From contig JBHLLT010000006.1 in NCBI GenBank assembly GCA_048938855.1, forward strand, positions 1-64,000: a stretch of DNA of 64,000 bases. Direction: 5' to 3'. This DNA is from Promethearchaeota archaeon (GTDB taxonomy: Archaea; Asgardarchaeota; Lokiarchaeia; Sigyniarchaeales; SOKP01). Shown here piece by piece: positions 43,486 to 59,146 of the stretch. Made by a program: the position numbers and the translations under genes. Under the pieces are notes generated by a model. That model made no database searches. It worked only from the letters and a program-made list of their open reading frames with translations, and was not told the DNA's origin. Positions within the stretch are counted from its first letter, which is position 1; each line of letters starts with the position of its first letter.

Positions 43486-43592
43486 TGGCGGGCTATAGGG
43501 GAATTGAACCCCCGACCTTTCTTTTTAAGGGAGAGCTTCCCATAAATGTCAGGTTAAAAGCCTGCTGCGCTACCTGCCTGCGCCAATAGCCC
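43486..43592 (-). tRNA. tRNA-Lys(UUU) with a ~30-nt insertion/intron near position 44/45 (approx. 43518-43547); CCA encoded
   Basis: GGGCTAT/ATAGCCC acceptor, GCGC D-stem, CAGG-CTTTTAA-CCTG anticodon arm, GGGGG-TTCAATT-CCCCT T-arm. Confidence 0.88.
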
Positions 43593-44944: not shown

Positions 44945-45046
44945 GCCTCTGTAGCTTAGTGGTTATAGCAACATTTTTAGTCATTTTGAAAAAAATGCTA
45001 GAGATTCGTAATCTGTAGATCGGGGGTTCAATTCCCCCCAGAGGCT
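44945..45046 (+). tRNA. tRNA-Thr(CGU) with a 29-nt intron at 28/29 (44973-45001)
   Basis: GCCTCTG/CAGAGGC acceptor; after splicing ACAGA-TTCGTAA-TCTGT; central helix AGCA/TGCT with ACA and AGA bulges. Confidence 0.92.
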
Positions 45047-45050
45047 CTAT

Positions 45051-46064
45051 TTATACTTCTTCTGTAAAAACAAAACGTTTAATCATTTGAAGGGCTAGCA
45101 TTTTAAAAGCATCGTTTATATTTTCACCTGTTTTTGCTGAAGTTTCAATATATGAAAGGCTAATTTTTTTAGAAAGTTCTTCTCCTTGTTCTGTGGACAC
45201 GACGCGATTATCTTCAAGGTCTATCTTATTTCCAACTAGTATCATTGATATAGTTGGTGAAATGGTTTTGATCTCTTTAAACCAACTTTCTAGAATGTCT
45301 AAAGTCTCTTTGCGAGTAACATCATATACTAAAATACCTGCTTCAGCATTAGCAAGGTATGTCTGTCTCACTCTTTTAAATTGTGCTTGTCCTGCTAAAT
45401 CCCAGATAACGAAACGAACTTTAGATTCTAGTCCTTTAAATTCACATTCTTTTTTCATTATTGATGTACCTATTGTAGATTTATAATCTGTTTGAAAAGA
45501 GTCTTCCACAAATCGGTGAACCATACTAGTCTTTCCAACTCCACCTTCACCACCCAGGATTAATTTAAAAGCATATTCTCCAGATTCTATTTTAATCTTT
45601 TGAAGAGTATCTACTTTTCTCTGGATATTGTGAGACTCTCTATCAATAGATAACTTAGGAATTACTGGGCTTACTGATCTTCCATCTAAAATTCTAGCAA
45701 TTTTCTCAGCAGCTAAATAAGCATATGGAAAAACAGGATCTACCATAGCAACTGCTTTCAATACAGTGACAAAAACTGCTTCAGGACCAGCTTCACAAAA
45801 TATGAATCGTTGCTCTTCTGTATCAAAAGTTCCCGTTCCAAAAGAACCAGAACTAAACTCTTCTGTGATTCTAGTCAAGACAGGTTCGACTAATGCACTA
45901 ACTCCTCCAATAACATCTTCTTCTACCTCTGCATCTGAAGAACCTTTTAATGCGGTCATTACTAACCCTTCTCTATTTACAATAAGAGTCGCGATTAAGT
46001 TCTCTCCTACTTCTTGCTTATACCATTTAAGTAAGGCTTCAAGTTTTTTTCGATCGACTGACAT
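45051..46064 (-). CDS. Roadblock/LC7 domain-Rab-like GTPase fusion
   Basis: N-terminal 'LIVNREGLV' roadblock; C-terminal GEGGVGKT, TIG, WDLAGQ, NKID, SAK. Confidence 0.9.
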   Translation of the reverse strand: MSVDRKKLEALLKWYKQEVGENLIATLIVNREGLVMTALKGSSDAEVEEDVIGGVSALVEPVLTRITEEFSSGSFGTGTFDTEEQRFIFCEAGPEAVFVTVLKAVAMVDPVFPYAYLAAEKIARILDGRSVSPVIPKLSIDRESHNIQRKVDTLQKIKIESGEYAFKLILGGEGGVGKTSMVHRFVEDSFQTDYKSTIGTSIMKKECEFKGLESKVRFVIWDLAGQAQFKRVRQTYLANAEAGILVYDVTRKETLDILESWFKEIKTISPTISMILVGNKIDLEDNRVVSTEQGEELSKKISLSYIETSAKTGENINDAFKMLALQMIKRFVFTEEV

Positions 46065-46294: not shown

Positions 46295-46467
46295 GCAGGA
46301 GTTGCCAAAATAATACGTAGTCCTACTTTTATGGCTAAGCTTGGTCTACGGCGCTAGAATTTTACGTAATAGTACGTATATGGCGTAACTGAGGCTCTAG
46401 TGACATAGGTCTTCGAAGGATCTACTTCTTCGTCCTAAATTCGTGGGTTCGAATCCCACCTCCTGCA
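46295..46467 (+). tRNA. tRNA-Leu(GAG) with three introns: 46309-46338 (14/15), 46358-46387 (30/31), 46412-46439 (variable arm)
   Basis: Removing the three segments gives an 85-nt class II cloverleaf: GCAGGAG/CTCCTGC, CTAGA-CTGAGGC-TCTAG, GAC-ATAG-GTC variable arm, GTGGG-TTCGAAT-CCCAC. Confidence 0.9.
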
Positions 46468-57673: not shown

Positions 57674-59146
57674 TTATCCTTTTACTACTCCTACAGGAAC
57701 TAATCTTACTATTTTTTCAACGATTTCAAGATCGTGGCTCACCTGAACAACTTGATCTATGTCTTTATATGCACCGGGTGCCTCTTCGGCAATCACTTTC
57801 ATCGAAGCTGCTCGTACCATAATTCCTTGTTTACTTAAACTATCTTTAACACGTTCTCCCCAATATTTTTTTGTAGCTTTAGCTCTTGACATTACTCTTC
57901 CCGAACCATGCGCAGTGGAACCAAATGATAAATCCATCGCATTCTCCTTCCCAACACATAGATAAGAAGCAGACCCCATAGTTCCTGGAATTAATACTGG
58001 TTGTCCAATAGATTTATATTTTTGTGGTATATCAGGATGATTTGGCGGAAATGCTCTCGTAGCACCCTTTCTATGAACGTTTAACTTCATTTTTTTACCA
58101 TCAATTTCATGTTCTTCAATTTTTAAGATATTGTGGCAAACTCCATAAATAAGGTGTAAATCTAAAGCATCTATATCTCTTTGAAAGGTTTGCTGAAATG
58201 ATTCTCTTAACCAATGTGTGATTAATTGACGGTTAGTAAATCCAAAATTAGCTGCACATGCCATTTGTTTTAGATAATTTTGTGCCTCAGGAGTATTTGC
58301 AGGTACGCACGCTAATTCTCTATCTGGTACTTTTATATTATATTGTTTCATAGCCTGCTCAATATTGCGTAAAGAATCTGAACATACTTGATGTCCAAGG
58401 GCTCTGCTTCCTGTATGAATCATAACAGTAATTTGATTCTTATCATGAATTCCCAACTTTTCAGCGATACTTTTATTATAAATTTCATCGACTTTTTGGA
58501 TTTCTAAAAAATGGTTTCCACTACCTAATGAACCAAGCTGTTTTATTGCACGCTGTTTTGCTTTCAATGAAACCAGTTTAGCATCTGCATCCATTAAACA
58601 TCCATTTTCCTCTAAATGATTAATGTCTTCTTCAATAGCATAACCATTATCTAATGCCCATTTTACACCATTATTTAAAACATCATCTAACTCTGAATAA
58701 CTAATATTAAGTTTGCCCTTCGAACCCAATCCTGAGGGGATATTTGTAAATATTCTATCCAATAAATTGGGAAGAACATTCTTAATATCATTAAGAAATA
58801 AATTAGATCTTAATAATCTTACACCACAATTAATATCATATCCTACTCCTCCAGGAGATATCATTCCTGTATCTGCATCTGTTCCAGCAACACCACCAAT
58901 ACAGAATCCATATCCTTGGTGGGCATCTGAAAGAGCAATCGCATGTTTTTGTATTCCGGGTAAACAAGCAACATTACAAATCTGATCTAATGTCCGATCC
59001 AACTTTATTTTCTCCAAAATATAATCATTAGCATAAATTTTTACAGGAACTCTCATCTGAAATTTTTCGATATTTCCTTTAATCCGCGACATTAATGTTT
59101 TTGGAGGAATTTCATAGATATTGTTATCAATTTTATTGACATTCAT
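57674..59146 (-). CDS. rtcB: tRNA-splicing ligase RtcB
   Basis: DAHQGYG, DINCG, GNHFLE, HTGSR, HN, HRKGA, HGSGR, EAPGAYK; no intein. Confidence 0.97.
   Translation of the reverse strand: MNVNKIDNNIYEIPPKTLMSRIKGNIEKFQMRVPVKIYANDYILEKIKLDRTLDQICNVACLPGIQKHAIALSDAHQGYGFCIGGVAGTDADTGMISPGGVGYDINCGVRLLRSNLFLNDIKNVLPNLLDRIFTNIPSGLGSKGKLNISYSELDDVLNNGVKWALDNGYAIEEDINHLEENGCLMDADAKLVSLKAKQRAIKQLGSLGSGNHFLEIQKVDEIYNKSIAEKLGIHDKNQITVMIHTGSRALGHQVCSDSLRNIEQAMKQYNIKVPDRELACVPANTPEAQNYLKQMACAANFGFTNRQLITHWLRESFQQTFQRDIDALDLHLIYGVCHNILKIEEHEIDGKKMKLNVHRKGATRAFPPNHPDIPQKYKSIGQPVLIPGTMGSASYLCVGKENAMDLSFGSTAHGSGRVMSRAKATKKYWGERVKDSLSKQGIMVRAASMKVIAEEAPGAYKDIDQVVQVSHDLEIVEKIVRLVPVGVVKG

What the first reader, a model, noticed from the sequence alone, without database searches (positions are those of the whole stretch)
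46309..46387. Introns 1 and 2 of tRNA-Leu look like copies of each other
Seen: AATAATACGTAGTCCTACTTTTATGGCTAA versus AATTTTACGTAATAGTACGTATATGGCGTA. They have the same length and 21/30 ungapped identities, and both keep a hairpin. Established: intron translocation between tRNA sites has been proposed for Thermoproteales. Inference: within-gene intron copying, meaning tRNA introns may behave as tiny mobile elements in this lineage. Part of the identity (GGC) is forced by pairing with similar exon sequence.
Basis: partly seen in the sequence, partly recalled or inferred. Interest (0 to 1): 0.75.

Follow-up and report, generated by a model that had tools for sequence, protein, structure and literature searches.

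The report
tRNA intron copied within its gene
In a group of Asgard archaea, a 30-base intron of a leucine tRNA gene was copied once to a second spot 49 bases upstream in the same gene, a dated case with a known donor for the open question of how these tiny introns arrive, although it is a rare event and not a roaming mobile element.

Summary
Confirmed, and relatives make it much stronger. The gene is a three-intron tRNA-Leu(GAG) (46295-46467) of a Lokiarchaeia-type Asgard archaeon, not a Thermoproteales. Introns 1 (14/15) and 2 (30/31) match at 21/30, the best of 1,485 intron pairs in the genome. That alone is borderline, and equal length means little (18 of 55 introns are 30 nt). In relatives the pair reaches 27-28/30, beyond 2 million simulated hairpins. 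Intron 2 is in 41 of 51 genus genomes; intron 1 is in one 11-genome clade, so intron 1 is the copy. Position 14/15 is the only other site in the gene where intron 2's pairing strand forms a full four-pair splicing helix. Intron 1 later moved sideways into another lineage on a ~300-bp tract. 'Tiny mobile elements' overstates it: no close copy lies elsewhere in 54 genomes, and 270 other same-gene pairs reach at most 50%. DNA or RNA route is unresolved; splicing is untested. A 2026 preprint found no copying route in Asgard but tested only between-tRNA families. The scan noted this gene's three introns before, and intron birth by exon duplication on other DNA, but not this copy.

The parts
46295..46467 (+). 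tRNA-Leu(GAG) gene with three non-canonical BHB introns (spliced length 85 nt)
   Evidence: missed by ARAGORN and by Rfam at gathering score; orthologous and syntenic across the genus
46295..46308 (+). exon 1 (nt 1-14); nt 9-12 are the 5' strand of intron 1's central helix
46309..46338 (+). intron 1, position 14/15, 30 nt, relaxed BHB (3 of 4 central pairs); the derived copy
46339..46357 (+). exon 2 (19 nt, D-loop to anticodon stem)
46358..46387 (+). intron 2, position 30/31, 30 nt, canonical BHB (4 of 4); the older donor
46388..46411 (+). exon 3 (anticodon loop and start of variable arm)
46412..46439 (+). intron 3 in the variable arm, 28 nt, unrelated to introns 1 and 2 (33-40% identity)
46440..46467 (+). 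exon 4 (T arm and 3' acceptor strand; CCA not encoded)

Best explanation
Intron 1 is a one-time, in-register copy of the older intron 2 of the same tRNA-Leu(GAG) gene, gained on the stem of an 11-species clade of Lokiarchaeia-type Asgard archaea. SHOWN by sequence and tree: homology, direction and timing; confinement to this gene. INFERRED: the copy survived at 14/15 because exon nt 9-12 pair with the donor's own 3' helix strand, so the new insert formed a bulge-helix-bulge at once and could be cut by EndA and joined by RtcB, restoring the tRNA. Positions 28-29 then changed in the copy, and the two introns drifted apart. Later the copy spread to at least one other lineage by homologous recombination of a short tract. 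INFERRED, weakly: the copy was made at DNA level by a local replication slip or template switch over 49 bp (about 55%), rather than by reverse splicing plus reverse transcription (about 30%).
For: Pair identity 21/30 here, 25 (G003), 27 (G017), 28 (G009); intron-1 and intron-2 consensuses 25/30; parsimony ancestors at the clade stem differ at 5 of 30 positions and share the same unpaired 4-nt loop. Null tests. Intron 2 in 41 of 51 genus genomes, intron 1 in 11 that form one clade with local support 1.0 on a tree of flanking PolD, GTPase and ThiL proteins; an ancestral intron 1 would need about six losses. In-clade intron-2 alleles are closer to ancestral intron 1 (mean 21.6 of 27) than out-of-clade alleles (16.9). 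Intron 2 keeps its pairing but not its letters across the genus (pairs 9-18 and 10-17 switch type), so shared letters reflect descent. Only two places in the 85-nt exon give four central pairs with intron 2's helix strand, and they are the two occupied sites. Two EndA genes and RtcB are in the genome; no RVT_1 reverse transcriptase found in a 97% complete assembly. Lateral move: L198/L201 carry intron 1 and a clade-type upstream spacer, but flanking proteins on both sides, intron 2 and intron 3 group with G100/G031 outside the clade.
Against: In this genome alone the identity is not decisive (0.12 expected by chance over equal-length pairs). Intron 1 has only 3 of 4 central pairs and position 28 is a fixed U in 17 of 17 alleles, which the simple copy does not explain. 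A shifted register with four pairs exists and would leave two extra A's in the D-loop (read from the sequence). Standard folding does not favour intron 1's BHB. No spliced RNA was seen. The tree is of flanking genes, not whole genomes. Nothing here separates DNA from RNA routes directly.
Confidence: 0.85

Rival explanations
1. Chance or convergence: two unrelated AT-rich 30-nt hairpins under the same BHB constraint look alike.
For: 30 nt is the modal length (18/55); part of the 3' end is forced by similar exon sequence; P for this genome alone is only 7.6e-4 per pair; one random place in the window also scores 21/30.
Against: Inner 22/23 and 23/23 in G017 and G009, never reached in 2,000,000 constrained simulations; 270 other same-gene pairs at most 50%; loop shared in the reconstructed ancestors; intron 2's letters are free to change across the genus.
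Confidence: 0.04
2. The intron is an active tiny mobile element that spreads among tRNA sites genome-wide, as proposed for Thermoproteales.
For: One real move between positions; one lateral move between lineages; a sharp 30-nt length mode could reflect old serial copying.
Against: No copy at up to 2 mismatches outside this gene in 54 genomes; no other cross-position family among 114 gene-position classes, the other high scores being same-position paralogues or boundary shifts; the preprint 10.64898/2026.10.13.758758 found 1.5% cross-type families in its focal Asgard lineages against 28.3% in Thermoproteales.
Confidence: 0.07
3. Both introns came separately from an outside donor (virus, plasmid or another cell's tRNA gene), or intron 1 is the older one.
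For: Intron-bearing 5' halves of this gene do move between lineages (L198; patchy long intron at 15/16); mobile-element delivery of a tRNA intron has been proposed for Caldiarchaeum (PMC3293823).
Against: Intron 1 is closest to intron 2 of its own clade and is monophyletic on the locus tree. An outside donor would itself need the same cross-position copy. Viral collections were not searched.
Confidence: 0.04
4. Sub-hypothesis: after the copy the two introns keep exchanging sequence (gene conversion), which holds them alike.
For: In G017/L205 intron 1 carries intron 2's derived loop letters; G009's introns are identical over the first 24 nt.
Against: Within-genome identity 22.4 against 22.0 between genomes, permutation P = 0.053 over 17 non-independent alleles; G009's match is close to the ancestral state of both.
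Confidence: 0.25

Closest known systems
tRNA intron transposition in Thermoproteales (Sugahara 2008; Fujishima 2010, as summarised in PMC4090602 and PMC4033280; the originals were not held)
   Same: Short BHB introns of similar sequence at different positions; target limited by the need to form a BHB; mechanism unknown.
   Different: There, many families span different tRNA genes (28% of introns at 80% identity or more, per the 2026 preprint). Here one family is confined to two sites 49 bp apart in one gene, in Asgard archaea, polarised on a tree with intron-less relatives. I could not check whether Fujishima 2010 lists same-gene cases.
Multi-intron, non-canonical tRNA genes of Asgard archaea (Valentin-Alvarado 2024, PMC11291895; Goswami, Ghosh and Sinha, bioRxiv 10.64898/2026.10.13.758758)
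   Same: Several non-canonical introns per gene, D-arm introns with relaxed motifs missed by annotators, repeated recent gains at BHB-compatible sites.
   Different: [quoted passage not shown] This case supplies a gain with an identified donor.
Intron gain at tRNA-Thr(GGU) 24/25 in Caldiarchaeum subterraneum via a mobile element (PMC3293823)
   Same: Recent gain of an extra non-canonical intron; recombination moves intron-bearing tRNA parts.
   Different: There the proposed donor is an integrating element; here the donor is the gene's own neighbouring intron, and the flanking genes are housekeeping genes syntenic across the genus.

Membership tests
Archaeal BHB tRNA intron | Removal restores a canonical tRNA that exists uninterrupted in relatives | tested here: met
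   85-nt cloverleaf after removal; orthologues lacking intron 1, intron 2 or both
Archaeal BHB tRNA intron | Bulge-helix-bulge at the junctions (four-pair central helix, two 3-nt bulges) | tested here: met
   Intron 2 canonical, 4 of 4; intron 1 relaxed, 3 of 4 plus intron-side helix conserved in 17 alleles
Archaeal BHB tRNA intron | EndA and RtcB encoded | tested here: met
   Two PF01974 genes and one RtcB
Archaeal BHB tRNA intron | Excision shown on RNA | not testable with these tools
   No RNA holder was listed
Thermoproteales-type transposed intron family | Over 70% similar introns at different positions | tested here: met
   70% here, up to 93% in relatives
Thermoproteales-type transposed intron family | Family spans evolutionarily distinct tRNA genes | tested here: not met
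   All close matches in 54 genomes lie in tRNA-Leu(GAG); none in the class comparison
Thermoproteales-type transposed intron family | New site constrained by BHB formation | tested here: met
   14/15 is the only other four-pair site for the donor's helix strand in the exon
Autonomous or repeatedly mobile element | Multiple dispersed copies or repeated independent insertions | tested here: not met
   One gain on the tree; no dispersed copies
Retro-mobility (reverse splicing plus reverse transcription) | Reverse transcriptase available | tested here: inconclusive
   No RVT_1 match in this 97% complete assembly; says little about the ancestor or its viruses
Intron born by duplication of host exon or leader sequence | Intron matches nearby exon or leader | tested here: not met
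   Within 600 bp the only match above 18/30 is intron 2; at most the last three bases may come from exon 1

The most novel reading that the evidence does not exclude
Short-range DNA copying inside a tRNA gene (intron to new site, or exon to new intron), filtered by BHB compatibility and then spread between lineages by recombination, is a main source of Asgard micro-introns. The sharp 30-nt length mode would be the decayed trace of such serial copying, and cross-gene tests would miss it by design.
Probability: 0.2. Interest if true: 0.8.

Novelty: new variant of a known kind. Interest (0 to 1): 0.55.

Why it matters
How intron DNA enters Asgard tRNA genes was declared open in October 2026 after tests of between-gene copying, mobile elements and reverse transcription failed. 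This is a gain with a named donor, a direction, a branch and a structural reason for the landing site. It points to a test that the published census lacks (same-gene pairs, with close relatives so that similarity has not decayed). It also shows that intron-bearing tRNA halves move between lineages, which would inflate counts of independent gains. The limit: it was the only case among 76 site-pair classes examined, so it is one route, not the general answer.

Tried and rejected
ARAGORN and Rfam at gathering score missed the gene. Ongoing gene conversion between the introns: inconclusive, P = 0.053. A second within-gene copy, intron 2 against the T-loop intron in G093/G036/G024/G102, suggested by a shared core: at most 50% identity, not accepted. 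Surveys of tRNA-Val(TAC), Asn, Trp, Ser(GGA), Leu(TAA) and neighbours found no other cross-position copy. Origin from host exon or leader: rejected. Hybrid 3' junction as evidence for a DNA slip: two of five ancestral differences lie in the last three bases, and the copy's end resembles the end of exon 1, but 34 of 55 introns end in AA anyway, so it is weak. Folding energies of native and cross-paired precursors lie within about 4 kcal/mol and do not discriminate. Fujishima 2010, Tocchini-Valentini 2011 and Sugahara 2007 were not held. Census limits: 55 introns in 34 genes, ten genes corrected by hand, several tRNAs (e.g. Cys, Tyr) not resolved, assembly 7% contaminated. G064 and the degenerate second copy in G099 were left out of the trees. 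Viral collections were not searched.

Full report
Setting. The window is contig C81 of a 3.95-Mb, 30% GC assembly. The neighbouring ORF at 45051-46064 reads as a roadblock-like domain fused to a small GTPase (my reading). So this is a Lokiarchaeia-type Asgard archaeon, not a Thermoproteales.

Anatomy. ARAGORN and Rfam miss the gene. It is tRNA-Leu(GAG), 46295-46467, with introns at 46309-46338 (14/15), 46358-46387 (30/31) and 46412-46439 (variable arm). Removing them gives an 85-nt cloverleaf. Intron 2 has a canonical four-pair BHB, intron 1 a relaxed one with three pairs. The genome encodes two EndA subunits and RtcB.

Is 21/30 more than chance? I built a census of 55 introns in 34 tRNA genes of the genome. 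The pair ranks first of 1,485 (mean 0.34, next 0.60). Eighteen introns are exactly 30 nt, so equal length says little. Leaving out the BHB-forced ends and simulating hairpins of the same shape and composition gives P = 7.6e-4 for 16 of 23 inner matches, about 0.12 expected over 153 equal-length pairs. On this genome alone the claim is suggestive only.

Relatives decide it. The gene was found in 51 of 54 genus genomes and is syntenic. The two introns match at 25/30 in G003, 27/30 in G017 and 28/30 in G009. The inner scores of the last two were never reached in 2,000,000 simulations, which survives correction for picking the best of 17 alleles. Across the genus intron 2 keeps its pairs while changing letters, so the shared letters are not a structural demand. 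Parsimony ancestors of the two introns differ at five positions and share the unpaired loop.

Direction and timing. Intron 2 is present in 41 of 51 genus genomes, down to the basal branches. Intron 1 is in 11, which form one clade with local support 1.0 on a FastTree of the flanking PolD, GTPase and ThiL proteins (repeated). One gain explains this; an ancestral intron 1 needs about six losses. Intron-2 alleles of the clade are closer to ancestral intron 1 (21.6 of 27) than those outside (16.9). The tree is a locus tree and its tips are related, so these means are descriptive.

Why 14/15. Scanning the spliced exon for four-pair partners of intron 2's 3' helix strand gives two sites only: nt 9-12 and the site before 30/31, which are the two occupied positions. 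A fresh copy at 14/15 would have been removable at once. This fits the BHB constraint described for Thermoproteales (PMC4090602) and Asgard gains, and cannot tell targeting from later selection. All 17 intron-1 alleles have U at position 28 where intron 2 has G in 41 of 42; this loses a pair and is unexplained. One idea, untested, is that it limits cross-pairing between the two near-identical introns. A shifted register with four pairs also exists and would leave two extra bases; only RNA can show which is used.

How the copy was made (inference). Strict locality (49 bp), no reverse transcriptase found and a 3' end that resembles the end of exon 1 favour a DNA slip or template switch, possibly a tandem duplication of exon 2 plus intron 2 followed by loss of the first exon 2. 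Exact register at the 5' splice site and the ready-made pairing fit reverse splicing equally well. I put these at about 55% and 30%. Ongoing conversion is not established (P = 0.053).

Not a roaming element. A degenerate pattern for the family finds, at up to two mismatches in 54 genomes, only these two sites; three-mismatch hits are about as common as in the reversed control. Among 337 distinct intron-bearing tRNA genes gathered from the genus and family, 270 other same-gene pairs reach at most 50%, and the only other high class-to-class scores are same-position paralogues or boundary shifts. The survey covers in depth about ten of the genome's tRNA types.

A second mode of spread. Two metagenome contigs (L198, L201; identical over the compared stretch, perhaps one population) carry intron 1 and a clade-type upstream spacer, while their flanking proteins on both sides, intron 2 and intron 3 belong with G100/G031 outside the clade. 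Their intron 1 matches G094's at 28/30 and their own intron 2 at 18/30. This reads as lateral transfer of a tract of about 300 bp ending in exon 2; a chimeric assembly is not excluded.

Comparison with what is known. It works like Thermoproteales intron transposition but fails that pattern's defining feature, families across different tRNA genes. The October 2026 preprint on Asgard tRNA introns (10.64898/2026.10.13.758758) tested only cross-type families, found 1.5% against 28.3% in Thermoproteales, and states that how intron DNA enters remains unknown. I found no paper in the searched library describing a within-gene copy, but could not read Fujishima 2010. Earlier scan notes record this gene's three introns and, on other DNA, intron birth from host exon duplication; I tested the latter here and it does not explain intron 1.

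Verdict. Observation confirmed; within-gene copy well supported (homology about 0.95, direction about 0.9); general mobility not supported. New variant of a known kind, interest 0.55.

Noticed in passing
L011, L014, L017, L018, L020-L022, L039, L052, L063, L081: tRNA-Leu(GAG) position 15/16: A 59-60-nt, internally repetitive intron, about twice the modal length, with a possible inner BHB at a recurring offset (intron within an intron). It is patchy on the tree (e.g. G027 among intron-less close kin) and travels with two exon changes and a longer upstream spacer, which suggests lateral swaps of the 5' half.
   Followed up: partly
G000 genome-wide and 281 genes of relatives: Sharp intron length mode at 30 nt: 18 of 55 in this genome, 181 distinct sequences in the wider set, against medians of 22-23 nt in the preprint's focal families. 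Unexplained.
   Followed up: partly
G000 C31:5009 +, C35:391 -, C28:8350 -: Two tRNA-Glu(TTC) genes and tRNA-Gln(TTG) have C instead of the near-universal U at position 33; 12 of the 23 Glu gene sequences gathered share it.
   Followed up: partly
G000 C49:43962 - (L210): Three-intron tRNA that splices to an apparent tRNA-Ile(TAT), rare in archaea; the 46-nt anticodon insert lacks a clear BHB, so the anticodon call is uncertain.
   Followed up: no
window 57677-58984 -: RtcB RNA ligase gene lies in this window, 11 kb from the tRNA.
   Followed up: no
window 43489-43592 - and 44945-45046 +: Two more intron-bearing tRNAs: Lys(TTT) with a 30-nt variable-loop intron and Thr(CGT) with a 29-nt anticodon-stem intron; unrelated to the Leu introns.
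   Followed up: yes
G004, G019, G098, G099, G002, G105, G107 (L040, L043, L046, L047, L058, L066, L073): In this clade the 30/31 intron is absent and a different D-loop intron is present; at least six positions of this one gene have hosted introns across the family.
   Followed up: partly
L090 (G099:C51): A degenerate second copy of the 3' part of tRNA-Leu(GAG), with G022-like introns and no 5' exon.
   Followed up: no
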